A stretch of DNA of 64,000 bases. Origin: Chloroflexota bacterium. GTDB lineage: Bacteria > Chloroflexota > Dehalococcoidia > UBA2247 > RBG-13-53-26. The translations under genes and the position numbers were made by a program. The notes under the pieces are model-generated. The model made no database searches. It had not been told where the DNA came from and worked only from the letters and a program-made list of their open reading frames with translations. Position 1 is the stretch's first letter. Each line of letters starts with the position of its first letter. Positions 26,110 to 48,227 of this stretch are shown here, piece by piece. The DNA lies in the NCBI GenBank assembly GCA_016876035.1, contig VGOE01000001.1:27264-91263 (forward strand), read 5' to 3'.

Positions 26110-26154
26110 TGGTAGCGGGGGTTGGATTTGAACCAACGGCCTTCGGGTTATGGG
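26110..26154 (-). repeat. 45-nt copy of the 3' half of the tRNA-Met at 48153-48227 (CCA end through the anticodon loop). It is a putative attL direct repeat.
   Basis: 26110-26154 is identical to 48153-48197 (tggtagcgggggttggatttgaaccaacggccttcgggttatggg). The sequences diverge afterwards. Confidence 0.75.
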
Positions 26155-26369
26155 TCTGGTGAGTATTGTCACAAGGGGTTATTTTACGTTCAAGCTGGAC
26201 ATAATGCATCAGGAGGCAGAATGTCGTTTTGTTCGTAAAATGCCGACCAGTGATAACCCGTTTCATTCCGTTGGTTAGCTTTTTGTTAGCTATTTTCTAG
26301 CTACGTTTTGAGCGTGAGACGATTTTCGTGAGACCCGGTTTGAAATGGTTCGGAGATACACCAGGTCGG

Positions 26370-27350
26370 TCAAGTAATGAAAACCTGAAGCTGTACAAGG
26401 CAGTGCTGTCCTGGGCGGCTGCTGTTGAGGGCAACTTCTGAGAGGGGATTGGGTTGTCGGGGGTCACATTTCCGAGTTTTGTGCAGCACTGCCAGCAGCA
26501 ACCGGTCCACACCCTGGGTCGAGTTGAAAGGCAGCTCATAGGCTGGATGAGCGAAACCCGGATTACAGAGTACCATGCCTCGCCTACAGGTGGCCGCCTT
26601 GACCGCCTCCCCCCTGGCAATCATTCCTTTGCTCAAAGAATCAATGTGGCTAGCTAGGCGGTTGTTAAAGGTACGTAACATGCTTGAGCGGCTGGCCTTG
26701 ATCATTCCCTCAAGCTCCGAAGCACTCACCGATGGCGCTGGCATCCCAAACGTCTTGGAGATGTTGGACAGGGCGGTGCGGTAGACAGTGACGGCATGAT
26801 CAGTAGAAACCCTGATGTCAGCCCCAAGCATACGGCCAGTTTTCATCAACTGGTAGAACGCCCTTTGCTGCTCAGACAGCTTGACCATCCCTGTACCAGC
26901 CCTTATGAGCCTATCGGCGTCTCCATAGTACCTTGCGAACCCAATTTGCCTCGATAAACTGCCGTTCATCCTCGAAAAAGCGTTGATAAAGGCTTCTTGA
27001 GAGGTGGAACCCAGCCGTAATAGCGACTTATCGGCACGGAACATCTTGCCAAAAGCCGACTGAATAGACTTGTTTTCAGCCCATACCTTCTGGCCGATAG
27101 CCTGCCTGACAACAGTGGCCCTCAGTCTTGGCGAGACAGAAGCGAGCTGGTCAGCATTGATGAAAAGCACGGATCCCTGGCGGAAATAGAGGTGATGGCC
27201 GCGGGAAATGTTGAAGAGTTCTTTTGAAGAGACTACCCGGATGCTGGTCAGCTCATTGGTGAAGCGTGGGTCCAGCCCTTTAAGGGCGGTGCGGATGGAC
27301 TCTGAGAATAGGCGGTTGGCTACAATTTCAGTCGATAGGAACGACTCCAT
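26370..27350 (-). CDS. Hypothetical protein (326 aa) with no recognisable motif.
   Basis: It is a long ORF with coding-like composition inside the island. It is overlapped at its 5' end by a 76-aa ORF. Confidence 0.45.
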   Translation of the reverse strand: MESFLSTEIVANRLFSESIRTALKGLDPRFTNELTSIRVVSSKELFNISRGHHLYFRQGSVLFINADQLASVSPRLRATVVRQAIGQKVWAENKSIQSAFGKMFRADKSLLRLGSTSQEAFINAFSRMNGSLSRQIGFARYYGDADRLIRAGTGMVKLSEQQRAFYQLMKTGRMLGADIRVSTDHAVTVYRTALSNISKTFGMPAPSVSASELEGMIKASRSSMLRTFNNRLASHIDSLSKGMIARGEAVKAATCRRGMVLCNPGFAHPAYELPFNSTQGVDRLLLAVLHKTRKCDPRQPNPLSEVALNSSRPGQHCLVQLQVFIT

Positions 27351-27830: not shown

Positions 27831-28271
27831 ATGAGCCTTTTGGCAGCACTTTCAGGGAAGTCCACATCCGATGAAGAAATTCTAAGTCAACTCAACGAGG
27901 CGGTGATGCAGCTGCAGGCGGATGCTCTAGGCAAGTTGGACGCTTTCGCACTCGGTAAGAAGGAGATTGAACAGAGCCGGCAGAACGTGATTCAGCTTCT
28001 TGAAATTCTCCAGGAACTTCTGTCCCAGACCGGTGACCTGCAATTCGTCATTCCAGATACACCTCAGGAGAGCGCAGCAAAGGATATAGTGCTGAAGCTC
28101 GAATATCGAGGTAGGCCGAGGGCTGACTGGCTCGAGGATATTCACTCAGCCATATCAAACTTGCGTGATAGCAAACCGCTATCTGATTCCGACTGGGTTT
28201 TATTAGAAGACATCGTAGATATACTGGATACAGAGCTTGCCGAAGACTTGAGGGAACTCAGCCGACAGTAA
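27831..28271 (+). CDS. Hypothetical coiled-coil protein (146 aa). It is translationally coupled to the next gene.
   Basis: A TAATG stop/start overlap occurs at 28269-28273. The composition is Leu/Glu/Gln-rich heptad-like. Confidence 0.45.
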   Translation: MSLLAALSGKSTSDEEILSQLNEAVMQLQADALGKLDAFALGKKEIEQSRQNVIQLLEILQELLSQTGDLQFVIPDTPQESAAKDIVLKLEYRGRPRADWLEDIHSAISNLRDSKPLSDSDWVLLEDIVDILDTELAEDLRELSRQ

Positions 28272-29443
28272 TGCGAGCGTATCTGAGGGCAAAGTGCGCA
28301 CAACTAGAAATTGAACTGAATCGGTTACAGGACTACATTGGCCAACAAGAACGGGATGCAACGCATCCCGTTCTTGTTTCTGATTTGAAAGACCACCTCT
28401 GCCAAATGCAGCGGCTGTGCCGACGGTTGTCCGCGATTGCTGAGAATCCCGATGCTGCTTTGTTGAAACGTGCTCATATGTACCTGAGAGATTACGCCTA
28501 TCTTCAGACATCTCTCAGAGTATGGTATCTCCCCGCATGCTTTTATGAAACGGATACGGATCGGCAATTTGGCAGAATCATACGGCACCTGAATAGTAGG
28601 CTTGGTGTGACGCCAATGGAAGACCTTATCGTATCCCACGGGCGCTTTTTCACTACCTTCCCTGGGATACTGAGAGCACCCATTTTCTACGTTCCCTTTG
28701 CTCAGCACCAGAGTCTTGGAGATCTTCCCGCTCTGTACCACGAAGTTGGGCATATTGTCTATCAACATAATCCGCTCTTCGCAACCGAACTCCAGGCAGT
28801 CGTGATCACCCACTACAGCGAGCTTGCGAGAAGAACTTCCCCTATTCCCAGTGTTCAGCAAGAAGAGCGTTTGAAAGCCCTTTCTTGGTGCGTTCAGTAC
28901 TGGAATTGGAGGAAGGCTATCCGAATACAAGAGCTGTTCTGTGATATTTTTGCAGCCAATGTCGTTGGTCCAGCCTTCATTTTCTCGTGGATAGACTTAG
29001 TTATGCGCCAAGCTGGAGAGCCATATCAGTACTCTGAATGCGACGAACATCCCCCGGATGGGTTCAGGGCAACAACCTGCTTCCAGGCGCTCCCAGCAGC
29101 ATGTCGGGATGCGCCACTAGTGGAATGGATGCAACAGGTGTTCACTCAGTATGTCAGCGGGAAACTTCAGCGGAGAGATCCGGTTCCCTACGCCATGCTG
29201 TGTTCAACCGAGCTTATGGAGAAATTGGTGAATAAGGTCAGCGAGCATCTGGAAAGGATTGGGGTACCGGTCTATGCAGGCCCGATCCCTGATCAGTCTC
29301 AGGCACAAGACTTTGCTGATGTGCTCGATCTTGAGGGACTACTTAATGCAGCAGTGGTGAAGCTGTTGGCTGACCCAAACGGCTATAATAGCTGGGAGTC
29401 CGAAATGGTCAGAAGACTCTATGCAGCGCTCCCAACAGCCTAA
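28271..29443 (+). CDS. Putative zinc metallopeptidase with HExxH-x4-H (HEVGHIVYQH). The family is unassigned and could be ImmA/IrrE-like or SprT-like.
   Basis: The motif is LPALYHEVGHIVYQHNP. The protein is 390 aa. Confidence 0.45.
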   Translation: MRAYLRAKCAQLEIELNRLQDYIGQQERDATHPVLVSDLKDHLCQMQRLCRRLSAIAENPDAALLKRAHMYLRDYAYLQTSLRVWYLPACFYETDTDRQFGRIIRHLNSRLGVTPMEDLIVSHGRFFTTFPGILRAPIFYVPFAQHQSLGDLPALYHEVGHIVYQHNPLFATELQAVVITHYSELARRTSPIPSVQQEERLKALSWCVQYWNWRKAIRIQELFCDIFAANVVGPAFIFSWIDLVMRQAGEPYQYSECDEHPPDGFRATTCFQALPAACRDAPLVEWMQQVFTQYVSGKLQRRDPVPYAMLCSTELMEKLVNKVSEHLERIGVPVYAGPIPDQSQAQDFADVLDLEGLLNAAVVKLLADPNGYNSWESEMVRRLYAALPTA

Positions 29444-31704
29444 TCCTCGTCTTTGAGTAGCGTTTCCCGCAGAAGTTCATCATCCCATCGAACGGTTACA
29501 GGCATACTAATGTCAATATCTGGGGCATTCCAGTTGAATTGAGTAAGGCGGAATACATCCTCAGCAACATGTCGGATGTCAAAAGCTCCGCTAGTCTGGG
29601 CCACGCTGACTAGCAATGTTCGGGCAGTTTTCCCCTGCTCGTCCCATTTCTCAGGCTTTCCTGTAGTCGTGATGATAGCTCGTCCCTCATCTAAGATGAG
29701 GTAGCAACCGGGGAACGGGTTCTGAAAGGTTGTTAGGTCATTTGGAGGCCCTGCAACGCTAAATATGCGCACCGGCAGATGTGTCTTACGAAGTTCCACA
29801 ATGGCATGCCTTACTGACCCACCGATGATGCCCTCTGATCGTAGTCGATTTAGGGCATCTTCGATACCCTCACTCTCCTTTGGCCATATGCGCCCGTCCC
29901 GATGAAATATAATACTTTCGAGGTGGAATCCCTGAGTCGCTATTTGCTTAACTGATGAAAGGAGTTCGTCTCGGATTCTCCTGGTCTTGATCGCTTCTTT
30001 TCCACCGCTACTACCTGTCCTCCGTCGCATCTCTCGGCCCCCCTTACCAAACAGGTATGTATAGACGACTCGTGAATCTTGAACGTCTATGCCAACATAT
30101 AGGTCCTGGTGAAGGAGATCAGCAAGAACCCAAGGCTTGCTTCCTGTTGCGATCAAAACACCAAGGGCTAGGTTGCGCAACTTGGATCTGTTAACGCAAA
30201 CCTCCTGGACATTCCCTTCATGAATACACTGAGAGAATACCGACCTGCATGTCTCTTTGAGGAGGGGATGGACCTGGCTGACGGCCTCTGACGGTAGTAC
30301 GCAAACCAGAAGAGCCCTCCGATGATCCCTCACAAGTGTTTCTGCCTCCGAGATCAGATTGCGTCCCTCTAGGTCAGGGGCGTAGGGAATCTGTCGCGAG
30401 AAGCTAAGATCCAGGCCAGATTGAAGCTTGACTTCAGTTACCAGCCTCTGCACAAATTCCTCTCTCAGCCGCCTGCTAAGCGTATTAGGGCAAAGCAGAA
30501 ATGCGACAGGGAGTGGCTCGGTGTGAAAGGGATGGCGCTCATAAAGAGCCTTAATCTTTGCAGGGCCCCAGTGGCGGATAGGATACGGCTCATTGGTGCG
30601 CTTTTGGAGGGCATCTATTCTGATGATGTGACCCTGACCAAATTCGAGCCCCGGCACTTGAAAGAAAGAGCCATCTATATGTAACGGCTCAAAGGACAAA
30701 TCTAGCGGAACATCCCCATAACAGACTTGCCCCAAGTCTTGAAGGAATTCAGATATTAGCTTCATCCGCACTTGCGGACTTAGCTGTGGGGGAATCGAGC
30801 ATTGTCGCAGGCCAATATGCTCTGTGGTAAATCTGGGGAAAAGGCGACTGACTGGGACAGGGAAGGGAGCCGTGCCACGCTCCTTATCCTGTACATAATA
30901 CACTGCCTCTTCATCAGGACTGAGGCTGCTACTGATCTGGGGGTACCGCCTGCGATAATACTCCAGCACTGTTTCGTTCAATTCCTCTAGCCAGAACTCC
31001 GCTATCGTTTGGCCTGTATCTCCAGCGTAAAAGCACCCAAACTTCACAGGCCCGTTGTCTCTTAAGAAGGCTCTTCTATGCTCCATCCGAACATCGCAGT
31101 GCTCGCGTAGCTGTTCCTCAAGCCCACGATCTCTATAGTCAAGCAAGGAGAGGCGGGATACATAGCGTGTCGCAACATCCACAGCAAGAAATAATCTTCC
31201 GCCTCGGATGGAAGTCACCCCAAAAGAGAACCCACGATATGCGTTTATGATGTCGGAAGCTTTGTCCTGATTATCCGGCGACACACGGAAAAATCGAGTC
31301 CAGGTGTCGCGCCAATAGTTAGGCTGATTTCGAAGTGTATCTGAAAAGGCGCGCTCCACCATGCTAGCGACAAACTCCAGATCTGCCCCGCTTGCTACTC
31401 GAAGGTCTACAGAAATGATCTCATCCGTGGGATCAACGTGGTAGGTCATATGAGGCACATCTTTGAAAGTGAGATCAGCATTAGTCATGTCGACGTCGGC
31501 TGGCATGATGAAATACGCGTCGGTGTCTCGTGACCGTGGAAAGACAGGGCACTTGAGGCGCCTCCTCCACATCTCATCTGCCCATTTCTGGACACGGACT
31601 GGTCTATAGTTATCATCAGGTAGCCGTTCTCGAACTTTGAGTAACCTGTACCTAAAATCGAGCTGCTGGGAATTTCGTATTTCGAACAGGGTGTATGCTA
31701 GCAC
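29440..31704 (-). CDS. Long prokaryotic Argonaute (pAgo) with a PIWI domain.
   Basis: PIWI-domain signatures are present. RALLVCVLPSE...ETCRSVFSQCI...NLALGVLIATGSKPWVL...LYVGIDVQD holds the first catalytic Asp in GIDV. IIFHRDGRI is the RDG motif. C-terminal AFDIRHVAEDVFRL parallels the YYAHLAAFRAR region with His. The length is 754 aa. The start overlaps the stop of the upstream nuclease gene. Confidence 0.7.
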   Translation of the reverse strand: MLAYTLFEIRNSQQLDFRYRLLKVRERLPDDNYRPVRVQKWADEMWRRRLKCPVFPRSRDTDAYFIMPADVDMTNADLTFKDVPHMTYHVDPTDEIISVDLRVASGADLEFVASMVERAFSDTLRNQPNYWRDTWTRFFRVSPDNQDKASDIINAYRGFSFGVTSIRGGRLFLAVDVATRYVSRLSLLDYRDRGLEEQLREHCDVRMEHRRAFLRDNGPVKFGCFYAGDTGQTIAEFWLEELNETVLEYYRRRYPQISSSLSPDEEAVYYVQDKERGTAPFPVPVSRLFPRFTTEHIGLRQCSIPPQLSPQVRMKLISEFLQDLGQVCYGDVPLDLSFEPLHIDGSFFQVPGLEFGQGHIIRIDALQKRTNEPYPIRHWGPAKIKALYERHPFHTEPLPVAFLLCPNTLSRRLREEFVQRLVTEVKLQSGLDLSFSRQIPYAPDLEGRNLISEAETLVRDHRRALLVCVLPSEAVSQVHPLLKETCRSVFSQCIHEGNVQEVCVNRSKLRNLALGVLIATGSKPWVLADLLHQDLYVGIDVQDSRVVYTYLFGKGGREMRRRTGSSGGKEAIKTRRIRDELLSSVKQIATQGFHLESIIFHRDGRIWPKESEGIEDALNRLRSEGIIGGSVRHAIVELRKTHLPVRIFSVAGPPNDLTTFQNPFPGCYLILDEGRAIITTTGKPEKWDEQGKTARTLLVSVAQTSGAFDIRHVAEDVFRLTQFNWNAPDIDISMPVTVRWDDELLRETLLKDED

Positions 31705-31705
31705 C

Positions 31706-32641
31706 TCACCACTCCCTGCATATTCGCTGAAATGGGCAACGCTCGCAAATCTTCACATGCCGGGCATAGCTAAAATCCCGAATATCTGCCACGCCTGTAT
31801 CAGGATCAACCATGAGTGCGCTAATGTTTTCTACGCTTCTCCTGATAACTGCTAACCGGTTCCACTTAGCTTCGGGGTCCAACGTAAAAGCTTCAACCTG
31901 CGGAGTCTCCAAGTTAACGGCATACGCTGTGGTGTCCCTAAGCTCAATACTCAAAGCCAGGTGTGGCCAAAGAAGGTAGCACTCCATTTGCCCCGAATAA
32001 CTTCGTGCATCAGACTTCCCAGTCTTCCAGTCATAGATCGCAAATCGGCCATCGCTGTTTCGCACAGCAAGATCTACCTTAACTGTGACCTTTGTAGTCT
32101 CGAAGTCAAATGCTGTAGCCCCTGGCCCAAATGTCGGGGGCTCAATCCAAACCCGGTTAGCGGTGGCTAGAATCTGCGGAATCCTCAGGGTGTCCCGAAT
32201 GTCACCGAAATTGTCCAAGCAGGTTCTGATCGTAGTTAGTATCCTGCTGAAAGTATCAAGCGGTAGCTGGATTCCATATTCATGCTCAAAGATAGCACCA
32301 AACTCCTCTCCTGCTCTCGTTGGCGCAACTTGGCGGTAGAGTTTCCTCTCAGAAAAATTCCACTGGCGCTCTGCGAGGTCCGCAGCCTTTTCTCGAAGGT
32401 CTTCCACCGACCAACGATGCCCGTTTGCCAGTTCCTTCAGCGACTTTGCAACAGTGGTATGCAAAAGGTCACCGACCCACGCCGAGAGTGTTTTTAGTTG
32501 CCGCAGAATCGCCACCTCTTTCAACAAAGGCTTCCTTGAATTGCGACGCGCTCCAGCCAAGTAATGAAAGAATAGCTGTCGCTCGCAGACTTCTAGCAGG
32601 TTGCCTTTCGAATACGACCATGATCGCTTTGTCGAGTCCAT
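31706..32641 (-). CDS. Cas4/AddB-like PD-(D/E)xK nuclease with a 4-Cys iron-sulfur cluster motif. The start is taken at the internal Met because the longer ORF overlaps the upstream gene.
   Basis: The PD-(D/E)xK core is VKVDLAV...GRFAIYDWKTGK. C-terminal CERCPFQRIC (C-x2-C-x5-C) plus an N-terminal Cys (EVCERQ) match the Cas4/AddB Fe-S arrangement. It lies immediately upstream of pAgo. Confidence 0.7.
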   Translation of the reverse strand: MDSTKRSWSYSKGNLLEVCERQLFFHYLAGARRNSRKPLLKEVAILRQLKTLSAWVGDLLHTTVAKSLKELANGHRWSVEDLREKAADLAERQWNFSERKLYRQVAPTRAGEEFGAIFEHEYGIQLPLDTFSRILTTIRTCLDNFGDIRDTLRIPQILATANRVWIEPPTFGPGATAFDFETTKVTVKVDLAVRNSDGRFAIYDWKTGKSDARSYSGQMECYLLWPHLALSIELRDTTAYAVNLETPQVEAFTLDPEAKWNRLAVIRRSVENISALMVDPDTGVADIRDFSYARHVKICERCPFQRICREW

Positions 32642-32654
32642 AACGCTTGCTGTC

Positions 32655-33044
32655 TTACGGAATATTGAAGGGACTGTAGAAATGTCCCACGCCCTGCGGC
32701 TCCAGGCGGTTGCCGAACAGGGGCCGCAGGCGAATCTCCTGGTTGCGCCAGTACATCTTGGGCTCCACATCCATAGTCAGCTTGTCCACGGGCAAGAGAA
32801 CGACCGGACTGCGGCGCAAGAGCCTCTCACCAGCCTCATAGAGGATATCGTGGAGTGGCTTCAAGTCACTCATTGTTGCCATGATTCGGTCCAGCCCTGC
32901 AACCTTAACTCGCCTGGGCAAAGTGTCCCTGGCTTGAAGACGTTGAAGGAACTGAACAATGCTCATTACTTCTGAGTCATCCTCGTAGCGCTGGCCAATA
33001 AGCCCCCTTTCCACCAGGTTGTAGCCGGCCTTCAATCCTTCCAT
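32655..33044 (-). CDS. Hypothetical protein (129 aa) within the defence operon.
   Basis: It lies 10 nt downstream of the methyltransferase stop and on the same strand. Confidence 0.4.
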   Translation of the reverse strand: MEGLKAGYNLVERGLIGQRYEDDSEVMSIVQFLQRLQARDTLPRRVKVAGLDRIMATMSDLKPLHDILYEAGERLLRRSPVVLLPVDKLTMDVEPKMYWRNQEIRLRPLFGNRLEPQGVGHFYSPFNIP

Positions 33045-33054
33045 AATACGCCCT

Positions 33055-35685
33055 CTACATTAGCCTCCGCTTCCCAGCTCCCAGCGCCTCGGCATGCTCC
33101 CGCAGGCGGTCATAGACCTTCACCCCGGTCTTCTTGTAAAGTAGGTCCAGCACCTGCACTAGGCCATCTCGCCGCCACCGCTCCAGCTCAGGTCGGATGT
33201 CCAGCCCGCTCTCCAGGACAGCATACAGGTAGTGGGCAATATCTATGAGAGGAAGAGGGTGTCCCCGCTCTATCTCTTTCTCTATGAACTCCAGGCGTTT
33301 TGAGGGAGTCATGGGCGCTATGGTCCGCCCTTTGCGCTCCTCAAGATACTGGCGGCGGTTGAACTCCTCCAGACTGAAGCCTCCCCCGGTAGTGAATCGC
33401 TTGCGCAAGTCGTCCCAAGTCAACCCCCTCTCCCCGGCAATGTAAAGAAGGTAGAGTTGGGTGGTTTCATCCAGGCCAGCGGGCAGTAGCTTCAGTTCGT
33501 AGGACTTGATGAGGAAGTCTACCATCCCCTCAATCTCGTCCACGGCGGTATCCACGTCCACGGGCTGGCCACCCCGCATGACATTGGGCCAGTGCCTCGA
33601 ATAGACCTCCAGGCAGCGCCCCATGGCAATGACGAAGAGGTCCGCGTCGCTGATGCGCCGCCCTGAGCGGCGGATGGCTCCCACTGTCTCCTCAACTTTG
33701 GCATGAATCTCGTCCTTGAGACTTTCCCAGGCAACCCGCCTTGGCTCCTCCAAGCGCTTGCGGCATACGAAGGGAATGTCATACGCGATGCCACCAGTTT
33801 TCAAGAGATGCGTGGAGGTCTTCATCTCGGCATGAACAGGGTAGACAGCCGAGACATAGAAGCCTGCCTCCACGATGCTCCGTAGGACAGATTTCCAGGC
33901 CCAAGGTTCCTTATGGTGGAAGGTGAAGACAAATGGCCCATCATCCTTCAGCACCCGGTGAGATTCCTTGAACACCCGAGTGAGTCCCCCGAAGAAGAAG
34001 TCCTCCGCATCCTTCTCTGCCTGCCCGGGCTTCTTGCTGGTGTTATGACGGGCAGTGTTCTTTACGATCTCCCTAGCCCTCGGTGATACCTCCGTTTCAA
34101 ACCAGGGATACTGCTCCTTAAGCCCCAGCTTGAGCCAAACATAGAAGAAGTCAGCCAGCTCCGAGTACATCACATTGTCACAATAGGGCGGGTCTGTGAT
34201 GACGGCGTCCATCGAATTGTCAGCCAGGAAAGCCATGTCTTCAGAAGTATCAGCCCCGAGTGCCACTTGACGTTTATCGCCTGCGAGCCGAAATTGGCTA
34301 ACTTGGCTCAGGGGTAACACCCGGTCAACTGTGCCACTTTCTCCCAATTTCAGGCGGGCTGCTTTCCCGCCCCTGATAGTAATCTCATACGGTGAAACAC
34401 TGTAAGTCTTGGCTGCTCTAACTTTCTGCCAAGTGCCTGCAAATGAATTTCCCCCACCCCTTGTGCCCCATATATTGCTCTCAACGGGCATGTTCGTCGG
34501 CCAGTAAGCATGGCGAGAAAATAATGGCATGATTTGGTAACTATCCGCCCTATACCGACAGAACATGTTGCTGAAATCTGTGAACTCTGATAGCGCCAGC
34601 AACCCAAGTTCCCTTACATTCTGATCCTCTATTCTTAGAATCTCCTTCAGCAGCAGGGAGAGACACAGGAGCTGCCGCTCGTTGAACATTTGGTGGAAGT
34701 ATTTGTAGCCGTAGTTGATAGGCCGGGGATCGCTGCGCCCTTCATTGGGAATCTTGGCGCGCGGGAAGAGCAGCCCGTCCTTCAGCCGCTGAAACTCTGC
34801 TCTGGCCTCTTCGTATAAAGCCTTATCGCTGCCCGTGACCCCTTTATAACCTCGGCGGCATGCGGGGCAGTAATACTCCAGGGCGAACATCTCGGCCTCG
34901 GGCGGGCCCTCCCGCCTCTGGATAGCCTTGAGAATGTTCTCCTTCTGCCCGCAGGCGGGGCAGGTGTATTTCCCACCCCCGGCGTATCCCTCTTCCGGCA
35001 CGTATTCCATACCACACTCGGAACATTCCACAGGGCTGTCCAGGGAATCAACATTGCTCTTGATGTGATAACAATGGGGGCAAAAGACGATATGCTTGCT
35101 ACTCTTGATGGCGATGCGGAAGGAAGGAAAGAGCTTTACCTCTTCGCCACAAGCCAGACAGGGCACCTTCTTCACCCAGAAGGCATACATGATGTCAGCC
35201 TCATGGCCTTGAGGACAAGTAGTGCGGTAGTAGCGCTTGAGCCGGGGGGCGATAGTTCTCTCCAGGTGCTTGAAGGCAGCGTCCAGGGCATCAAACTCTA
35301 CCGGGTCTATCTCCTTCTTGGTGACGAACCAGGCCACCGGATTGAGATCGATGCCGACCACCTTGCACCCCAGGCGCAGGGACTCCACCACCGTGGTGCC
35401 TCCGCCCATAAAGGGGTCCAGGATGATGGGTAGCTTGCCCTCTTTGTTCTTAAGCTCGTTCTTGGAGTAGAAGCGGCTCCACAGGCGGCGCTGGTTCTCC
35501 TCCGGGGAAAGAGAGTCGTCCCACTCGGCGAAGGCAGCCAGGATAAGCATGCGGAAGACACTGCCCAGGCGCCTGGCCCACCACTTGTGAATCATATATA
35601 TAGGGCGCCTCATACCTAAGCCTGTTTCAGCAGTGGCGACCTCGTTTAAGGCTTCTATGGGCAGGTCACGCTCTATGTAGCGCAT
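33055..35685 (-). CDS. DNA methyltransferase with a DUF1156-type N-terminus (amino-methyltransferase, DPPY motif) and inserted zinc-ribbon clusters.
   Basis: The N-terminal reads IHKWWARRLGSVFRMLILAA (DUF1156 WWARR signature). The SAM motif is ILDPFMGGGTTVVE. The catalytic motif IV is VITDPPYCDNVMYSE. Multiple CxxC pairs are present. The protein is 876 aa. Confidence 0.8.
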   Translation of the reverse strand: MRYIERDLPIEALNEVATAETGLGMRRPIYMIHKWWARRLGSVFRMLILAAFAEWDDSLSPEENQRRLWSRFYSKNELKNKEGKLPIILDPFMGGGTTVVESLRLGCKVVGIDLNPVAWFVTKKEIDPVEFDALDAAFKHLERTIAPRLKRYYRTTCPQGHEADIMYAFWVKKVPCLACGEEVKLFPSFRIAIKSSKHIVFCPHCYHIKSNVDSLDSPVECSECGMEYVPEEGYAGGGKYTCPACGQKENILKAIQRREGPPEAEMFALEYYCPACRRGYKGVTGSDKALYEEARAEFQRLKDGLLFPRAKIPNEGRSDPRPINYGYKYFHQMFNERQLLCLSLLLKEILRIEDQNVRELGLLALSEFTDFSNMFCRYRADSYQIMPLFSRHAYWPTNMPVESNIWGTRGGGNSFAGTWQKVRAAKTYSVSPYEITIRGGKAARLKLGESGTVDRVLPLSQVSQFRLAGDKRQVALGADTSEDMAFLADNSMDAVITDPPYCDNVMYSELADFFYVWLKLGLKEQYPWFETEVSPRAREIVKNTARHNTSKKPGQAEKDAEDFFFGGLTRVFKESHRVLKDDGPFVFTFHHKEPWAWKSVLRSIVEAGFYVSAVYPVHAEMKTSTHLLKTGGIAYDIPFVCRKRLEEPRRVAWESLKDEIHAKVEETVGAIRRSGRRISDADLFVIAMGRCLEVYSRHWPNVMRGGQPVDVDTAVDEIEGMVDFLIKSYELKLLPAGLDETTQLYLLYIAGERGLTWDDLRKRFTTGGGFSLEEFNRRQYLEERKGRTIAPMTPSKRLEFIEKEIERGHPLPLIDIAHYLYAVLESGLDIRPELERWRRDGLVQVLDLLYKKTGVKVYDRLREHAEALGAGKRRLM

Positions 35686-35694
35686 GGCGACTTC

Positions 35695-36030
35695 TCACTT
35701 CTTCGTTGGCGGGTGGAAATGTGTCTCAGAGCGAAGGGACGTTGGAAAATCACATTTCCCACACCAGAGGTCCCGATCAAGATTTTTGTGGCGTGTCCAT
35801 CCATGGTGGTCTTCAAGCGTTCTCTGAACCTGACGCTGCCAATTGCCGCCTTTGTGGAGAATGTTGGCAGGCACAAGCGAACCAAATTCCGGATAGACAA
35901 CGGGGTTGTTGCTCGCTGCAAGCTGTTGAGCGCAGTTCAGAACCGCTGAGTCACAGGCAGGGCAAAGGGGCCATGGCCAACTGCTATAGTCGGGCTTCGT
36001 ATGGTTAGAATTCCAACTGCATGAGCGCAT
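35695..36030 (-). CDS. Hypothetical zinc-ribbon protein (111 aa, 4 Cys) in the defence operon.
   Basis: Two Cys pairs are present (CPACDSAV...CGKCDF). It lies 9 nt upstream of the methyltransferase start. Confidence 0.35.
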   Translation of the reverse strand: MRSCSWNSNHTKPDYSSWPWPLCPACDSAVLNCAQQLAASNNPVVYPEFGSLVPANILHKGGNWQRQVQRTLEDHHGWTRHKNLDRDLWCGKCDFPTSLRSETHFHPPTKK

Positions 36031-36061
36031 TTTACTTCCCTCGCAACATTCAGCTTCCCCT

Positions 36062-36289
36062 TCATCTCCTGCAGAGAGACAAACTCCCCTTCTTGCCCTC
36101 GGCCCAGGCTTTACGGGACCTCTTTACCTGGTGCGCCAGTTCCTCGCCGCCCAGGATCTCCGCCGTTGCCTCCCACTCATCCCTCTCCCTGAGGTAGGCG
36201 GCAAAGTCAGCCACCGCCTTAACCCTGTCCTCTGAAAGGGACTTGACCTCTTCCAGTAACTTGCCCTTGTAGCCACCAGCCTTAGCCAC
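36062..36289 (-). CDS. Small hypothetical protein (75 aa, GTG start) in the defence operon.
   Basis: A GTG start is preceded by AGAGGGGGTGA. It lies 6 nt after the PglZ-domain gene stop. Confidence 0.4.
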   Translation of the reverse strand: MAKAGGYKGKLLEEVKSLSEDRVKAVADFAAYLRERDEWEATAEILGGEELAHQVKRSRKAWAEGKKGSLSLCRR

Positions 36290-36295
36290 GATTCA

Positions 36296-37243
36296 TCACC
36301 CCCTCTTTAGCCTTATCACAGGTACCAGACACTCCATGAGTGAAATGCCGCCATGTGCCACATCCGACTGCTTGCCAGGGGCACTCCAGTAGTAGCGCCC
36401 CCGGACATAGCACCCCTTATCATCGAACAGAACATAGGTATGGTCTTTGGGAAGAGCACGCAGCACCTCAAACTCTCCGGCATTCGGGCCATCGAATGTG
36501 ATCCCCCGCTGGGCACCAAAGAGCTTCAGAAGCACCTTGCGATTGGAGACGGGGGCGTGCCAGAAAAGGGCAGCGGACTGGGCATATACATAGCCATGGT
36601 CAGAGGTGAGCACCACCTCCTTCGTTTCCAGCATGTTTAGAATCTTGAGCAGAGCCTCCTCCGTCCGTTGCAAAGCAAAGGAAGGGGTAACCCCCTTGCC
36701 TTTCATGGGATGCATCAGTTCGTCTGGAAAGGAAAGCCATACCAACGCCTTTGGTCCCTGCAGGAAGATCGGAACATCGCCCGACCTGATGGAGCGGAAG
36801 GTGAATCCCTGCCACTTCTTGGGCATAGCTGCCGCTCCTGCTACTCCGAAGACATCACGGAAGAAAGCCCGTGTCGTCGATGGCACCCCTGAGTAGGCAT
36901 AGGAGTATTGTGCAGGGTCGAAGCCCTTTTCTTTGAGCCGGGGCATTAGCCAGTTGGCCTCTCTGAGGGAGAGGCCGTCCAGCACAACGATGGACGCCTC
37001 CAGGCAACTGAACTCGGCTGTCCTGTTCTGGGATCTGGCCCGCTCCAACAGCAAATCGTAGAGTTCAAAGTAGGTATCCCTTATGAACTCCTCCAGATTA
37101 TTGGTCTCGCGCTCTTGCTGGACATAGAAAGCATCCACATCGCCTGAGTCACCTGATGTCCATATATCATTTAGAGCCTTGAACAAAGGGCCGACAGGAT
37201 CGTCCTGGGTGAGAAGCTGTGTGACAAGGCTATTCAGATTCAT
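36296..37243 (-). CDS. Stand-alone PglZ-domain protein (alkaline-phosphatase superfamily fold).
   Basis: Motifs IVVLDGLSLRE, GVPSTTRAFF and VVLTSDHGYVY resemble the PglZ/BrxZ metal-binding and catalytic Ser/Thr signatures. The start overlaps the ATPase stop by 14 nt. Confidence 0.6.
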   Translation of the reverse strand: MNLNSLVTQLLTQDDPVGPLFKALNDIWTSGDSGDVDAFYVQQERETNNLEEFIRDTYFELYDLLLERARSQNRTAEFSCLEASIVVLDGLSLREANWLMPRLKEKGFDPAQYSYAYSGVPSTTRAFFRDVFGVAGAAAMPKKWQGFTFRSIRSGDVPIFLQGPKALVWLSFPDELMHPMKGKGVTPSFALQRTEEALLKILNMLETKEVVLTSDHGYVYAQSAALFWHAPVSNRKVLLKLFGAQRGITFDGPNAGEFEVLRALPKDHTYVLFDDKGCYVRGRYYWSAPGKQSDVAHGGISLMECLVPVIRLKRG

Positions 37244-39821
37244 GCTTCTCCACCTCCAGGGTGGCCTTGATGATGCCCTCTGAGGGAACGGGCAGCTTGC
37301 CCAGGAGCTTCATCAGCTCGTCCTTCGCCATAGCCCGAGGCATCCATAGCTTTACAGACAGCTCAACCTGGCTGACGCCTTTCTTGCCCTTGAAGTCCGC
37401 CAGCAATTCTTCTAACTTGCTCGCCTCTTCCATCGCCTTACCTCTGAGAGATATGGTGACAGAAGCAACTTTGTCACCCGAGGAGAGACGTCCCTCTAAC
37501 TCAGTGACCATCTTGAAGGGAGTAGTATGTTCCTGGCTAGCAAGGGGCACAGTCTCCCTTTCGGCGACCTTTTTGTCCTCTTTCACCGCCGTGCCGCCTT
37601 CGGGCGTCCGCTCATACTCTGTAGTTTCCCCAGGCACTACCTTCTCCGGCTCTTTCTCGGCGGTAATGGCCACCCCTCCGGGAACCGATGGCCCATACTG
37701 CGCCAGATAAAGCCGCATCTCGTCCAGGACTTCGTGGCACGGGTTGCTCTTATCATAGAGGCGCTTGTCCAACTCCAATATGATCTCACCGCTGACGCAG
37801 AGGCTGCGTACTCGGGAGGGCAAGGTTTCAGCATCCAGCAAAAGAGGCCTCCCCACTTGCTTCATGAACATACTTTTCAGCTCATCAAACCTTCTACCTT
37901 GCCCCTGGGCTTCGGCCAACTCCGTTATAATGGCATCGTCCACCACCTCGGTGCTAGCAGCGCTCCTGACCTTGTCGGCGATGTCTTCGGTGCTTAGCTC
38001 ACAGGCGACCGGGCGGAAATATACCTGGGCACCTTTGCCACTGGCCTTCATCCACTCTCCATAAGCCCGCTGCACCCGGTTTCGCAGTTCATCCTCTTGT
38101 TGCTGCTGGTATTCACTCAGGGCTTTCTTCTTGTCTGCCCCTACCTCTGTTTCCATAGCTTGGCAAACCAGGATGCGCTGGGCCCTAATTAGCAGCTCTT
38201 CGCTTTGAGCAAGATCGCCCCCGGTCTTGGGACGAACCAGGATAACCATATTTCGCCATTCTCTGCCATGAAAGATCTTGTCCCGGATGTCATCGCTCTC
38301 CACAAACTTGGTTGACACTAATATCCTAAGCTGGCGGGTATCAGGAATTTCGCTATCAAGTGGGTAGATACTGACGTCCATACCCTTGAGGAAGCTCTTA
38401 ATAACCTCAGCCAGCTTGCTCTGAGCAGCCTTGGAGTCTTCCGCAAGCTGTCTTTCAGCCCGGGCATTGATACTAATGGGGAGGTTTTCCTCGTCTCTAA
38501 ACACATAACGACCATTCAGCGGATGGACAAACCAAGCATTCAGAGCACCTTGCCTAAGCTTGGATAGCACAAGGTTTATCTGATTTATGTCCCTCTGCAG
38601 AGTAAGATTTCCCAGGACTATTTGCCCCTCATTTGCACCGGGCTGGCCCGCCACAAAGGAACGAAGAAGAATTGTGGACAGAATGCCCCTAGCCAGCTTT
38701 TCGTCTTTGGTCCGCTTGATGTCGCTGAGACACCGTTCCACCAGCACCGGCTCCAGCTTAAAGAGGTCATCCTGAACCTCTTCATTTTCTGGGTTTATGT
38801 CGGAGGAGAGTAACAGATCTCTCTCTGCAGCGCAGTCACGGAGGACACTAGAGAGGAGATAGAGGATGCCACGGGTATTCTGATAATTTCGGGAAGCACC
38901 AAAGCTCTGGAAAAGAACCTCCAAAAGCTCGGGGTGAAGGGGGTAGTATTTGAGCATTTGGGAACGATAAGCATCGATAGGCTCGACAACAGTTTCCAGG
39001 GAACCCTTGATGTCTGCATAGCGCTTCACATAGGCTTCCACCACTCTCTTGGCCTTGGCCTTGTCGATGCTTTGGAACAGCCTGAACCGAATGACCTCCG
39101 CCTTGTCCTCCGAAGCTCCCAGGTCTTGAATGAAGACCTGCTCCCTGCCCAGCCTTCCCAAGATTCCTTCACTCCTACCGTATAGCGAAATCAAGACAAT
39201 CAACTTGCAGTCGCTATCTGAGCTTACCTCTGAAAGGACCTGGAGGAAGTTGAGGTTGCGAGTTTTCCTTACAGGGTCGGCGATGGCCTCATACCAGGAT
39301 TCGAGCTCATCCATGATAATGACAACTGGTTCCTTGCCGATGGCTTCTTTGAACTGGGTGATGGTCGGATAGTCACGAATCTGGCCAAGCATGGAGGCCT
39401 TCCCTAGCCCCTTGAACACGGGCTCCCATAAGAACTCTGGATTCCCCTCTTCCCCCTCCATCAACTGCAACACAACTGGCATAGCCTGTGGTAATTGAAC
39501 TTTGATAGACCACCTGTCCTGCCAGGCTTTGGCCACATTAGGAGCCGCAAACAGGTGGTATAGCACAAGCAGACAGTGCGACTTGCCGGTGCCATAGCCA
39601 CCGGCAAAGATGAAAGTGCCATGAGCTCTTCTACCCGAGAGCCGCTCGGTTATTGCTTTTAGCGCCTGGGAGAGTGCATGGGAAGGGTAGGTTATGGAAA
39701 GGATGCGATCGGCTGAGGCTTCTGGCTTGGTTGGGATAGTCACATTATATAACCTTACTATCCCGAAGATGTCGCCTTTCTGGGCTTCATCAGAAAGTGA
39801 AACAACATCGTTGATTAACAT
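37230..39821 (-). CDS. Large P-loop ATPase of the BrxC/PglY-like family (DUF499-like).
   Basis: Walker A is FAGGYGTGKSHCLL. Walker B is VVIIMDELESW. It is the first gene of the operon, with about 480 nt of non-coding DNA upstream. The protein is 863 aa. Confidence 0.7.
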   Translation of the reverse strand: MLINDVVSLSDEAQKGDIFGIVRLYNVTIPTKPEASADRILSITYPSHALSQALKAITERLSGRRAHGTFIFAGGYGTGKSHCLLVLYHLFAAPNVAKAWQDRWSIKVQLPQAMPVVLQLMEGEEGNPEFLWEPVFKGLGKASMLGQIRDYPTITQFKEAIGKEPVVIIMDELESWYEAIADPVRKTRNLNFLQVLSEVSSDSDCKLIVLISLYGRSEGILGRLGREQVFIQDLGASEDKAEVIRFRLFQSIDKAKAKRVVEAYVKRYADIKGSLETVVEPIDAYRSQMLKYYPLHPELLEVLFQSFGASRNYQNTRGILYLLSSVLRDCAAERDLLLSSDINPENEEVQDDLFKLEPVLVERCLSDIKRTKDEKLARGILSTILLRSFVAGQPGANEGQIVLGNLTLQRDINQINLVLSKLRQGALNAWFVHPLNGRYVFRDEENLPISINARAERQLAEDSKAAQSKLAEVIKSFLKGMDVSIYPLDSEIPDTRQLRILVSTKFVESDDIRDKIFHGREWRNMVILVRPKTGGDLAQSEELLIRAQRILVCQAMETEVGADKKKALSEYQQQQEDELRNRVQRAYGEWMKASGKGAQVYFRPVACELSTEDIADKVRSAASTEVVDDAIITELAEAQGQGRRFDELKSMFMKQVGRPLLLDAETLPSRVRSLCVSGEIILELDKRLYDKSNPCHEVLDEMRLYLAQYGPSVPGGVAITAEKEPEKVVPGETTEYERTPEGGTAVKEDKKVAERETVPLASQEHTTPFKMVTELEGRLSSGDKVASVTISLRGKAMEEASKLEELLADFKGKKGVSQVELSVKLWMPRAMAKDELMKLLGKLPVPSEGIIKATLEVEKHESE

Positions 39822-40986: not shown

Positions 40987-42132
40987 CTACCGCTCGTAGG
41001 AATAGCCCTTCACGTAGTTGTGGATGGTCGGTTTGCTCACGCCCATCATCTTGGCAATCTGCCCCATGGATAGCCCGCCATGGTGAAGCTCCCTTGCCTT
41101 CTGGATACGCTCCTCAAGGGTCATCCTCTTGGGCAGCTTCATTGCCGGAGGTTCTCCGCCGGCTGCAAAGGCATGGCTTAGTTTGGCGGTCCAGAATGTG
41201 GGCAAATCATTCTCCAGAAGCCCCATGAAGTCGGCATCTGGAGAGTAAACGTAGCTCCACCTTCTTCTTTCGCCCTTCACTGTGCCAAAGGCTTGTTTTG
41301 CCTGGGTCGCAATTCTAGCCAGTTCAGGCCTATCAAACTCTAGCTGAAGCATCCCCAAATCCTTGAATACCACCACGTTGGCAGAGCTAGCGATATTTCT
41401 ATCCACTTGGCGGGCTTCCTGGCTGACGAAGACAAGCGTCTGCTCCCTTTGGCGAGATAGATTTAGGATGCGGGACATCTCTCTGCTTCTAGCTGCTAGG
41501 CTCTCCCTGGAGTGATACCGCAGATAGGCTTCGTCCACAAGCACGATAGACTTCTGGGGGATGTCTTCGAAGCTTTCGGCAATGCCTATCCAGTCTGGGA
41601 GAAGCTTCTGGCCTTGCTTTGGAAGCCCAAGAACGTAAGGTGTCAGCACATATCTGCATAACTCCAACAGCCGATAGCCCAGGGCGGACTTACCACTGCC
41701 CCGCTTCCCTAAGATTAGCACCACGGAGGGGTGGGCGATAACCTCCCGCCATCTAGCATCGACCTCAATCTGGGCTTCAGTTCTAAGTGCTGGCGAAGTA
41801 ATGGTCTCGGTTTCCCCTGCTGGCTTGTTATCAATCTGTTTGAAGGCAAGTGACCAGGCTTCAAAAAGCCGGCGTTTACTTTCCTGCATCAATACCTCTT
41901 GGCACTGTCGCCATAGCTCTACCAGGAATGGCTCCAAGAAGGGTGAAGCAATGGCAAAAGTAATGCCTGCCTGGAGTCGCCTGCCTTGAGGGGCGACAGC
42001 GAGTCCCAATAGGCCCCACAGAGCAGCGGAGTAATAACCGTTGTCTGTCGGCTGATTACTGACCATTCCAATATGTCGCCGTCTCAAATGTGACATAATA
42101 GCCTCTGGGAGCCATTGTAAACGAAAAGTCAT
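40987..42132 (-). CDS. P-loop NTPase with a C-terminal helix-turn-helix. It may be a replication or partition-associated ATPase of the mobile element.
   Basis: Walker A is LILGKRGSGKSALG. Walker B is IVLVDEAYL. The C-terminal HTH is GLSMGQIAKMMGVSKPTIHNYV. Confidence 0.55.
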   Translation of the reverse strand: MTFRLQWLPEAIMSHLRRRHIGMVSNQPTDNGYYSAALWGLLGLAVAPQGRRLQAGITFAIASPFLEPFLVELWRQCQEVLMQESKRRLFEAWSLAFKQIDNKPAGETETITSPALRTEAQIEVDARWREVIAHPSVVLILGKRGSGKSALGYRLLELCRYVLTPYVLGLPKQGQKLLPDWIGIAESFEDIPQKSIVLVDEAYLRYHSRESLAARSREMSRILNLSRQREQTLVFVSQEARQVDRNIASSANVVVFKDLGMLQLEFDRPELARIATQAKQAFGTVKGERRRWSYVYSPDADFMGLLENDLPTFWTAKLSHAFAAGGEPPAMKLPKRMTLEERIQKARELHHGGLSMGQIAKMMGVSKPTIHNYVKGYSYER

Positions 42133-42359: not shown

Positions 42360-43040
42360 CTACCACCCAAAGTCCACCCCTTGTTGTACCCGCAGAGATT
42401 CCTCAGCTTGCAGGGTCTTGAAATACCTTAGTGTCATCCTGGCTGTTGTGTGCCGGAGCTGGTCCTGGACAGCCTTCGGATTGCCAGTCACCCTCAGTCT
42501 TTCTATAGCCCCGCTATGCCTCAGGATATGCACGGCCCCCACATGGTCGGGCTTAGTGACTCCGGCTTTAGCCATGGCTGCGTCAACAATCTGAAAGGCC
42601 CTGGTTCGGGTTATGGGAAAGAACTGCTCTTCGATATTGAGGCCGTGGCGGTAGGCATAGGCTTGCAGTTGCGCTGCAAGGCTAGATGATATGGCTGCTA
42701 TCCCGGGTTTCTTACCCTTACCGAAGATCTCCAGGTGCCAGCCGGTAGGATCCTGCTTTATATCCCTCGGCCTGACCCTTAATGCCTCGCTGATCCGCAG
42801 ACAAGCGTCAAAGAGTGTCTGTACCAACAGCCTGTCACGATCCTGGTGTCTGCCAGAACTGCCGGCGGCCTCAGCTATGGCCGTCACCTCAGCCAACCCC
42901 AGGTGCGGTACATAACCACTCTCAGCCACCTGTGCCCTGACAATTGCTTGCCTCTGAGCACTTTTGTTTAGCCTTGGAAGCCTTGGGGTCACCGCCACCA
43001 GGTTTGTTGACGACTGTGGTCTATCGCCACTGGCTGTCAT
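42360..43040 (-). CDS. Small tyrosine recombinase of the phage-integrase family (resolvase or Xer-like).
   Basis: The C-terminal catalytic region reads HILRHSGAIERL...LRHTTARMTLRYF (HxxR...Y). The protein is 226 aa. Confidence 0.65.
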   Translation of the reverse strand: MTASGDRPQSSTNLVAVTPRLPRLNKSAQRQAIVRAQVAESGYVPHLGLAEVTAIAEAAGSSGRHQDRDRLLVQTLFDACLRISEALRVRPRDIKQDPTGWHLEIFGKGKKPGIAAISSSLAAQLQAYAYRHGLNIEEQFFPITRTRAFQIVDAAMAKAGVTKPDHVGAVHILRHSGAIERLRVTGNPKAVQDQLRHTTARMTLRYFKTLQAEESLRVQQGVDFGW

Positions 43041-48152: not shown

Positions 48153-48227
48153 TGGTAGCGGGGGTTGGATTTGAACCAACGGCCTTCGGGTTATGGGCCC
48201 GACGAGCTACCACTGCTCCACCCCGCG
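48153..48227 (-). tRNA. tRNA-Met (anticodon CAU), initiator-type.
   Basis: The RNA reads CGCGGGGTGGAGCAGTGGTAGCTCGTCGGGCCCATAACCCGAAGGCCGTTGGTTCAAATCCAACCCCCGCTACCA. Positions 1:72 are mismatched (C:U). Three G:C pairs close the anticodon stem. The anticodon loop is CCCAUAA. A CCA end is encoded. Confidence 0.85.

What the first reader, a model, noticed from the sequence alone, without database searches (positions are those of the whole stretch)
33055..39821. Minimal BREX-like module: DUF499 ATPase, stand-alone 315-aa PglZ domain and DUF1156 methyltransferase
Canonical BREX uses a PglX methyltransferase, a large PglZ of about 800 aa and a BrxC of about 1200 aa. Here the ATPase is 863 aa. The PglZ domain is a free-standing 315-aa protein with motifs VLDGLS, PSTTR and TSDHG. 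The methyltransferase is of the DUF1156 type, with WWARR and DPPY motifs plus several inserted CxxC zinc ribbons. Two small proteins (75 aa and a 111-aa Zn ribbon) sit between the PglZ gene and the methyltransferase gene. This looks like a stripped-down or distinct Pgl-like variant.
Basis: partly seen in the sequence, partly recalled or inferred. Interest (0 to 1): 0.7.

Follow-up and report, generated by a model that had tools for sequence, protein, structure and literature searches.

The report
Helicase-less BREX-related methylation defence module
This is a real four-gene relative of the BREX anti-phage system (ATPase, small PglZ enzyme, DNA methylase and a small partner protein); its family was described by computer analysis in 2026, but this copy belongs to a branch that lacks the family's helicase, which makes it the smallest natural version of the BREX core.

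Summary
On the minus strand lie a DUF499 AAA+ ATPase (863 aa), a stand-alone PglZ (315 aa), two small ORFs and a DUF1156 N6-adenine methyltransferase (876 aa). All the quoted motifs are present. In about 100 related loci the order ATPase, PglZ, methyltransferase, DUF8076 never changes. This matches the "Type-3 BREX-related (BR) system" of Rakesh & Krishnan (NAR 2026), and DUF8076 is their "iSTAND" protein. That definition also requires a Snf2 helicase. None is present here, nor in a PglZ-tree clade of Chloroflexota and archaeal loci that keeps every catalytic motif. The remaining four proteins correspond to the BrxB:BrxC:PglZ:PglX core of BREX. The 75-aa and 111-aa ORFs are variable cargo: a decayed antitoxin and an unknown protein. 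They sit at a junction that holds other defence genes in relatives. The pAgo/Cas4-like pair downstream is a separate neighbour, seen only in this lineage. The whole region is cargo of a 22-kb island at tRNA-Met. Verdict: a new variant of a known kind, untested experimentally, of moderate interest.

The parts
37230..39821 (-). DUF499-type AAA+ ATPase (863 aa), the counterpart of BrxC, HmaC and MtsA. Walker A is GGYGTGKS at 74-81 and Walker B is VIIMDE at 167-172.
   Evidence: Pfam DUF499 7e-12. PADLOC HmaC 8e-19, DUF499 9e-14, SspC 2e-7, BrxC 6e-6. Motifs. It is the first gene of the conserved row in about 100 loci.
36296..37243 (-). Stand-alone PglZ (315 aa): an N-terminal helical region (about residues 1-79) followed by an alkaline-phosphatase/NPP-type core. 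D89, S92, P121, T124, D174, D215, H216, H297 and E304 are among the 19 columns invariant across the family. It overlaps the ATPase gene by 14 nt.
   Evidence: Pfam PglZ 24.7 bits (cut-off 25) and PADLOC PglZ 8e-7. Alignment A1 gives the invariant columns. AF2 model pLDDT 86.9. Foldseek: PorX 5e-10, BREX PglZ 9zn5_B 2e-6, then ENPPs. Profile against PDB sequences.
36062..36289 (-). 75-aa ORF: a remnant of an antitoxin-like gene. It is variable cargo at the PglZ-methyltransferase junction, not a system component.
   Evidence: 81% identical over 70 aa to the 82-aa gene that precedes a ParE toxin gene in L001. The C-terminal part matches in another frame, and no ParE is left in the window. Homologues occur only in L001, L002, L007, L087 and L088. 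Weak DUF2281 hit.
35695..36030 (-). 111-aa ORF with two CxxC pairs, function unknown. It is variable cargo at the same junction.
   Evidence: No Pfam or PADLOC hit. The only homologues are in the closest relatives L087 and L088, at 7e-52. It occupies the position of ParE in L001.
33055..35685 (-). DUF1156-type N6-adenine DNA methyltransferase (876 aa). WWARR at 35, motif I DPFMGGG at 90, a Cys-rich insert (five CxxC plus CPQGH, residues 157-276) that is probably the target-recognition region, and motif IV DPPY at 498.
   Evidence: Pfam N6_N4_Mtase 1e-10 and DUF1156 5e-4 (below cut-off). PADLOC HmaB 6e-45, DUF1156_MTase 3e-24, PglXI 2e-21. Motifs. Zn-finger elaboration of the TRD insert is described for Type-3 BR methyltransferases.
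32655..33044 (-). DUF8076 protein (129 aa), the small protein called 'iSTAND' in the Type-3 BR system. It is the fourth conserved gene of the module and the proposed counterpart of BrxB/BrxF.

Best explanation
[quoted passage not shown] It probably works as a methylation-based self/non-self defence system. Shown: the four genes are DUF499 AAA+ ATPase, stand-alone PglZ, DUF1156 N6-adenine methyltransferase and DUF8076/iSTAND. They form a conserved, co-oriented row whose catalytic motifs are intact throughout the clade. The Snf2 helicase that follows DUF8076 in the rest of the family is absent from this clade. Inferred from experiments on relatives: the ATPase, helped by the small DUF8076 protein, loads and activates the methyltransferase, which marks host DNA at a short motif read by its Cys-rich insert. 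This mirrors MANTIS, where MtsA and MtsB are needed for MtsC methylation, and BREX, where PglX needs BrxB, BrxC and PglZ. DUF8076 would bridge PglZ to the ATPase as BrxB does. On unmethylated incoming DNA the complex would switch to restriction, with the metal-dependent PglZ phosphodiesterase/nuclease as the only effector. [quoted passage not shown] The 75-aa and 111-aa ORFs are unrelated cargo. The module travels as cargo of a 22-kb integrative island.
Confidence: 0.68

Rival explanations
1. Methylation-only remnant. The lineage lost its helicase and with it restriction. The four genes persist as an ATPase-dependent orphan DNA methyltransferase complex, used for epigenetic marking or for protection against other restriction systems rather than as an immune system.
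Against: The PglZ metal-binding and nucleophile motifs are strictly conserved in the helicase-less clade. The module sits in defence islands and mobile elements, next to pAgo, GmrSD, AbiEii, Fic and SIR2. It has spread between Chloroflexota and archaea. All this fits a selected defence function. However, PglZ is also needed for methylation in BREX, so its conservation does not settle the question.
Confidence: 0.2
2. Ordinary five-gene Type-3 BR system whose Snf2 helicase is encoded elsewhere in the genome and acts in trans.
For: Most related loci come from fragmented MAGs. Only 2.9-10 kb downstream of the module, and up to 10 kb upstream, could be inspected.
Against: The absence is clade-wide, not sporadic. 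Several loci are flanked directly by housekeeping genes (L001). No relative of either helicase type occurs in the 64-kb window. The module moves here as island cargo without a helicase.
Confidence: 0.07
3. Composite system. The pAgo and Cas4-like nuclease genes that begin 13 nt after DUF8076, where the helicase sits in canonical loci, have been recruited as the DNA-degrading arm of the BR module.
For: Same strand, 13-nt and 1-nt gaps, and no convincing terminator between the genes. The position is equivalent to that of the helicase.
Against: The pair occurs only in the window's own lineage (L094-L098, identical DUF8076 and matching gene lengths). It is absent from every other locus fetched, including the near relative L089, whose sequence extends past DUF8076. 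pAgo plus Cas4-like nuclease matches stand-alone PADLOC pAgo system models. Other relatives have unrelated defence genes at that position.
Confidence: 0.05

Closest known systems
Type-3 DUF499-centred BREX-related (BR) system (Rakesh & Krishnan, Nucleic Acids Res 2026, PMC12839542)
   Same: DUF499 AAA+ ATPase, DUF1156 N6-methyltransferase with a Zn-finger-rich TRD insert, stand-alone active PglZ, and the small 'iSTAND' protein (Pfam DUF8076). The gene order is the same, and the PglZ and DUF8076 proteins are homologous by sequence.
   Different: The BrxHII-like Swi2/Snf2 helicase, described there as one of three retained core components, is missing here and in a whole PglZ clade. The proteins are also shorter: methyltransferase 876 aa against about 1000-1100, and DUF8076 129 aa against about 142.
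[not shown]
   Same: The logic is the same: an ORC/Cdc6-type ATPase, a PglZ, an N6-adenine methyltransferase and an inactive-ATPase-like partner. The methyltransferase hits the PglXI profile at 2e-21, and the N-terminus of the ATPase hits BrxC at 6e-6. [quoted passage not shown]
   Different: The ATPase is DUF499-type, 863 aa rather than about 1200. PglZ is a bare 315-aa domain rather than about 800 aa with extra domains. No BrxA, BrxL or BrxH homologue was detected, and the methyltransferase carries the DUF1156 N-terminus.
Hma (Type-1 BR) and MANTIS/Gao_RL (Type-2 BR)
   Same: The best PADLOC matches of the ATPase and methyltransferase are HmaC and HmaB. MANTIS shows experimentally that a DUF499 ATPase plus a small co-regulator are needed to load the methyltransferase, which hemimethylates asymmetric 6-bp sites.
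   Different: Those systems restrict through a helicase-nuclease (HmaA or MtsD) and have no PglZ. MANTIS uses MtsB rather than DUF8076. The window has PglZ and neither a helicase nor a dedicated nuclease.
PorX-type PglZ domains (type IX secretion response regulators)
   Same: They are the best structural matches of the 315-aa protein (Foldseek 5e-10). The D...PxxT...DH...H metal and nucleophile motifs are shared.
   Different: PorX has receiver and other domains and acts in signalling, and its gene context is unrelated.

Membership tests
Type-3 BR (DUF499-centred BREX-related) system | DUF499-type ORC/Cdc6-like AAA+ ATPase with intact Walker motifs | tested here: met
   Pfam DUF499 7e-12, PADLOC HmaC 8e-19 and DUF499 9e-14. 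Walker A at 74 and Walker B at 167.
Type-3 BR (DUF499-centred BREX-related) system | N6-adenine methyltransferase with DUF1156 N-terminus and a TRD insert after motif I (some with several 4-Cys zinc fingers) | tested here: met
   N6_N4_Mtase 1e-10, DUF1156 5e-4 (20.6 bits, under the 24-bit cut-off), HmaB 6e-45. WWARR, DPFMGGG, five CxxC and DPPY.
Type-3 BR (DUF499-centred BREX-related) system | Stand-alone PglZ with conserved metal-binding residues, encoded as a separate gene | tested here: met
   315 aa. Invariant D89, T124, D215, H216 and H297. The fold matches PorX and BREX PglZ. Profile hits to PDB PglZ chains.
Type-3 BR (DUF499-centred BREX-related) system | Small 'iSTAND' protein (present in 82% of published taxa) | tested here: met
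   The window's 129-aa DUF8076 belongs to the same sequence family as the published iSTAND sequence (136.7 bits with the family profile; 25.3 bits, E 7e-10, with the proximal-clade profile). Whether the fold is an inactive STAND NTPase is inconclusive here.
Type-3 BR (DUF499-centred BREX-related) system | BrxHII-like Swi2/Snf2 helicase without nuclease, one of the three 'core' components | tested here: not met
   No homologue of the 934-aa or 529-aa helicases in the 64-kb window or in any of the 9 evaluable loci of the same PglZ clade. It is present in all evaluable loci of the other clades except L022.
Canonical BREX (types 1-6) | Large multidomain PglZ (about 800 aa) and BrxC/PglY ATPase (about 1200 aa) | tested here: not met
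   PglZ is 315 aa and matches only the C-terminal core of the PADLOC PglZ models. The ATPase is 863 aa and matches BrxC models only over residues 3-100.
Canonical BREX (types 1-6) | Accessory genes BrxA plus BrxL, BrxH, PglW or BrxP | tested here: not met
   PADLOC and Pfam scans of all ORFs in the row and its neighbours gave no BrxA, BrxL, BrxH, PglW or BrxP hit.
Hma (Type-1 BR) / MANTIS (Type-2 BR) | Helicase-nuclease effector (HmaA or MtsD) and, for MANTIS, the MtsB co-regulator | tested here: not met
   No helicase, PLD or MtsB-type domain in the row. A PglZ is present instead.
Any methylation-based defence system | Site-specific host methylation and restriction of unmethylated DNA | not testable with these tools
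   This needs methylome sequencing and phage or plasmid challenge of the cloned operon.

The most novel reading that the evidence does not exclude
In this island the helicase-less BR module and the pAgo/Cas4-like nuclease pair that starts 13 nt after DUF8076 form one operon-level composite. The BR methylation mark (or the DUF499/PglZ complex) would license or direct the Argonaute-nuclease arm, which would replace the lost helicase as the DNA-degrading effector.
Probability: 0.05. Interest if true: 0.8.

Novelty: new variant of a known kind. Interest (0 to 1): 0.5.

Why it matters
How BREX stops phage is still unresolved. Genetics point to a BrxB:BrxC:PglZ:PglX core plus accessory motors of variable importance. 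This lineage is a natural system of about 6.6 kb that consists only of the counterparts of that core, with PglZ reduced to its bare catalytic domain and no helicase or BrxL. If it defends on its own, it would be the smallest BREX-like system known. It would be a clean test of whether PglZ is the effector and of how an ATPase-gated methyltransferase tells self from non-self. If it only methylates, it documents how a defence system decays into an ATPase-dependent orphan methylase. It would also refine the published definition of Type-3 BR systems, in which the helicase is treated as core.

Tried and rejected
(1) pAgo linkage. I searched all fetched loci for the window's pAgo and Cas4-like proteins. 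They occur only in contigs whose DUF8076 is identical to the window's and whose gene lengths match, so I rejected them as part of the conserved system.

(2) The small ORFs as components. The 75-aa ORF has homologues in only a few close relatives, where it pairs with ParE. The 111-aa ORF is found only in L087 and L088. I rejected both as components.

(3) A ParE remnant in another frame of 35500-36400. tblastn found nothing (E 0.8).

(5) Pairwise BLASTP of the window's DUF8076 against the published iSTAND gave no hit. Only profiles connect them.

(6) Direct sequence searches of the PDB with the ATPase found nothing, and with the methyltransferase found only marginal motif-I hits.

(7) Promoter and terminator scans gave counts no higher than shuffled sequence, so they say nothing about operon structure.

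(8) The weak PADLOC 'mad1/mad8' hits of the upstream AAA-HTH protein are HTH-level matches, so I did not pursue MADS.

(9) Supplementary Data S1 of the NAR paper, which lists the neighbourhoods, is held only as a table of contents. I could not check whether helicase-less loci were among its 569 taxa.
Full report
**1. What is in the sequence**

The minus strand between 39821 and 29440 carries eight tightly packed, co-oriented ORFs:

| Gene | Coordinates | Size |
|---|---|---|
| DUF499 ATPase | 39821-37230 | 863 aa |
| PglZ | 37243-36296 | 315 aa (14-nt overlap with the ATPase gene) |
| small ORF | 36289-36062 | 75 aa |
| small ORF | 36030-35695 | 111 aa |
| DUF1156 methyltransferase | 35685-33055 | 876 aa |
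| DUF8076 protein | 33044-32655 | 129 aa |
| Cas4-like PD-(D/E)XK nuclease | 32641-31706 | 311 aa (start inferred from the profile match) |
| Argonaute (pAgo) | 31704-29440 | 754 aa |

- Profile searches confirm the ATPase as DUF499-type (Pfam 7e-12; PADLOC HmaC 8e-19, with weaker SspC and BrxC hits).
- They confirm the methyltransferase as a DUF1156/HmaB-type N6-adenine enzyme (HmaB 6e-45, PglXI 2e-21).
- PglZ scores 24.7 bits against Pfam PglZ, just under the cut-off of 25. Three further results settle it:
  - a PADLOC PglZ hit at 8e-7;
  - a profile of 23 homologues that finds PorX and BREX PglZ chains in the PDB at 3e-6 to 4e-5;
  - a confident AlphaFold model (pLDDT 86.9, pTM 0.89) whose best Foldseek matches are PorX PglZ domains (5e-10), BREX PglZ 9zn5_B (2e-6) and then ENPP phosphodiesterases.
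- The family-invariant residues D89, T124 (in P-S-x-T), D215-H216 and H297 are the expected metal-binding and nucleophile positions.

**2. The conserved unit**

I collected homologues of the short PglZ. A scan of one genome per species returned 80 loci from many bacterial and archaeal phyla. I added metagenome contigs that encode close relatives.

- Wherever the contig is long enough, the order is ATPase, PglZ, methyltransferase, then a 129-146-aa protein.
- That small protein carries Pfam DUF8076 in precomputed annotations, and at least 555 protein clusters belong to the family.
- The 129-aa type and the 142-146-aa type of distant loci are one family: their hit sets share 14 members.

**3. 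What the system is called**

A full-text search found Rakesh & Krishnan (NAR 2026, PMC12839542). [quoted passage not shown]

- Type 1 is Hma.
- Type 2 is Gao_RL, since renamed MANTIS.
- Type 3 is a DUF499 ATPase, a DUF1156 methyltransferase (some with two 4-Cys zinc fingers in the TRD insert), a BrxHII-like Snf2 helicase without nuclease, a stand-alone active PglZ, and an "iSTAND" protein. It was found in 569 taxa.

The iSTAND sequence printed in their Supplementary Data S3 (MKGYEIFEQK...FNLSS) scores 136.7 bits against my DUF8076 family profile. It scores 25.3 bits (E 7e-10) against a profile built only from the window's own clade. DUF8076 is therefore their iSTAND.

**4. What is different here**

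- **Distant clades.** In the PglZ clades that are about 25% identical to the window, every locus with enough downstream DNA has a 934-aa SNF2 helicase right after DUF8076 (Pfam SNF2-rel_dom 6e-23, Helicase_C 8e-20).
- **Sister clade.** This clade has a 529-aa ResIII/Helicase_C protein at that position.
- **Window's clade.** It comprises three Chloroflexota subgroups plus archaeal loci from Thermoproteota and other archaea.
  - None of the 9 evaluable loci has a helicase within 2.9-10 kb downstream of the module.
  - Several of these loci are flanked directly by housekeeping genes.
  - No relative of either helicase exists anywhere in the 64-kb window.
- **The four remaining genes are not decaying.**
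  - Walker A/B, DPFMGGG (except L092), DPPY, PSxT, SDHGY and HGGxSLME are conserved in the helicase-less loci.
  - The PglZ D-G-x-S motif is conserved in all but L018.
  - The methyltransferases keep 5-6 CxxC pairs, although they are 100-250 aa shorter than in helicase-bearing loci.

The window therefore carries a streamlined, helicase-less variant of the Type-3 BR system, about 2,180 aa in total.

**5. The small ORFs and the neighbours**

- **75-aa ORF.** It is 81% identical to the gene that precedes a ParE toxin gene in L001. In the window its C-terminus is frameshifted and ParE is gone.
- **111-aa ORF.** This Cys-rich ORF has homologues only in the closest relatives, L087 and L088.
- **The PglZ-methyltransferase junction.** The gap ranges from overlapping genes to 7.8 kb. 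In relatives it holds unrelated defence-type cargo:
  - an OLD-family nuclease plus UvrD helicase and a Schlafen protein (L024);
  - a NACHT-HEAT protein (L033);
  - an AAA_22 giant protein plus an Mrr nuclease (L003);
  - a second methyltransferase plus an ATPase (L013);
  - a DEAD-HIRAN helicase (L035);
  - Fic (L043);
  - DUF3800 (L080).

  The two small ORFs are cargo at this insertion hotspot, not components.
- **The pAgo/Cas4-like pair.** It matches PADLOC pAgo_II at 5e-70 and Aga_Cas4-like_Nuc at 6e-33. It follows DUF8076 only in contigs whose DUF8076 is identical to the window's. Other relatives have GmrSD, AbiEii, Fic, SIR2 or HicB there. I treat it as an adjacent, independent system.
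- **The island.** The whole region is cargo of a 22-kb integrative island.
  - A 54-nt direct repeat of the 3' half of tRNA-Met lies at 26110-26163 and 48153-48206.
  - It brackets an integrase split over two frames, a second recombinase, DUF3854/DUF3987 replication-type genes, an AAA-HTH protein, the BR module, the pAgo pair and three genes with no family match.

**6. Mechanism**

Shown: the identities of the genes, their conserved order, the intact catalytic motifs and the absence of a helicase.

Inferred from experimentally studied relatives:

- In MANTIS, the DUF499 ATPase MtsA and the small co-regulator MtsB are both needed to load the methyltransferase MtsC, which hemimethylates asymmetric 6-bp sites.
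- In BREX, BrxB (an inactive AAA+ domain) bridges PglZ to the AAA+ domain of BrxC, PglZ has metal-dependent nicking and cleavage activity, and BrxL is dispensable for methylation and variably needed for restriction.

Confidence is about 0.85 that this is a helicase-less Type-3 BR-family module. It is about 0.5 that the module restricts by itself through PglZ. The overall figure is 0.68.

**7. Rivals**

| Rival | Probability | Main points |
|---|---|---|
| Methylation-only remnant that lost restriction | 0.2 | BrxL-type motors matter only for restriction; but the module keeps defence-island and mobile-element contexts |
| Helicase encoded in trans elsewhere in the genome | 0.07 | The MAGs are incomplete; but the absence is clade-wide |
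| Composite with the pAgo/nuclease pair as effector arm | 0.05 | 13-nt spacing, at the helicase's position; but the pairing is unique to this lineage |

**8. Novelty and score**

The kind of system is known, though only from computational description and only since January 2026. The window's system fails one defining feature of that description, the core helicase, and it does so as part of a coherent clade. I classify it as a new variant of a known kind.

It matters as a natural minimal BREX-like core that could make the effector question testable. There are no experimental data, and the reading 'lost its restriction arm' remains open. Interest: 0.5.

Noticed in passing
window 26110-26163 and 48153-48206; tRNA-Met 48153-48227 (-): A 54-nt direct repeat (93% identical overall; at least the first 29 nt identical) of the 3' half of tRNA-Met, with copies 22,043 bp apart, looks like the att sites of a 22-kb integrative island. 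The island carries the BR module, the pAgo pair and mobility genes. Genes outside it are metabolic housekeeping genes.
   Followed up: partly
window 46905-47306 (+) and 47375-48082 (+): The island's tyrosine integrase is split into an Arm-binding/SAM-like N-terminal ORF and a catalytic ORF in a different frame. This suggests a frameshifted, possibly immobilised integrase, or an assembly error. A second, short Phage_integrase-family ORF lies at 42360-43040 (-).
   Followed up: partly
window 29440-31704 (-) and 31706-32641 (-): A 754-aa prokaryotic Argonaute (PADLOC pAgo_II 5e-70; Pfam Piwi below cut-off) is paired with a Cas4-like PD-(D/E)XK nuclease (Aga_Cas4-like_Nuc 6e-33). The pair starts 13 nt after the DUF8076 stop codon. 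This adjacency was found only in contigs of the window's own lineage.
   Followed up: partly
related loci L003, L013, L024, L033, L035, L043, L080, L001 (between the PglZ and methyltransferase genes): The PglZ-methyltransferase junction of this family is an insertion hotspot, with 0 to 7.8 kb of cargo. The cargo includes an OLD-type nuclease plus UvrD helicase (Gabija-like) and a Schlafen protein, a NACHT-HEAT protein, an AAA_22 giant protein plus an Mrr nuclease, a DEAD-HIRAN helicase, Fic, DUF3800 and a ParE toxin-antitoxin pair.
   Followed up: partly
window 28271-29443 (+), 27831-28271 (+), 26370-27350 (-): Three island genes (390, 146 and 326 aa) have no Pfam hits, and the 390-aa one also has no PADLOC hit. 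The 390-aa gene is convergent with pAgo and overlaps its end by 4 nt. The same 390-aa and 146-aa genes accompany the pAgo pair in L094-L098.
   Followed up: no
window 40987-42132 (-): A 381-aa protein with a P-loop region (weak AAA_16 match) and a C-terminal HTH (Terminase_5/HTH_38-type) lies between the mobility genes and the BR module. It could be a regulator or a packaging-type ATPase of the island.
   Followed up: no
window 55059-56627 (+): A PIF1-like SF1 helicase fused to a C-terminal WYL domain lies outside the island. It is unrelated to the BR helicases.
   Followed up: no
window 22726-22949 and 23194-23417: A 224-nt direct repeat (72% identity, copies 468 nt apart) lies at the start of the zf-HC2/beta-propeller gene and just upstream of it.
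   Followed up: no
L029 14030-15616, L028 5879-7465, L027 15623-16510: A sister clade of the helicase-less group carries a much shorter helicase (529 aa, ResIII/Helicase_C) after DUF8076 in place of the 934-aa SNF2 type. This may be an intermediate form in the reduction of the helicase arm.
   Followed up: partly
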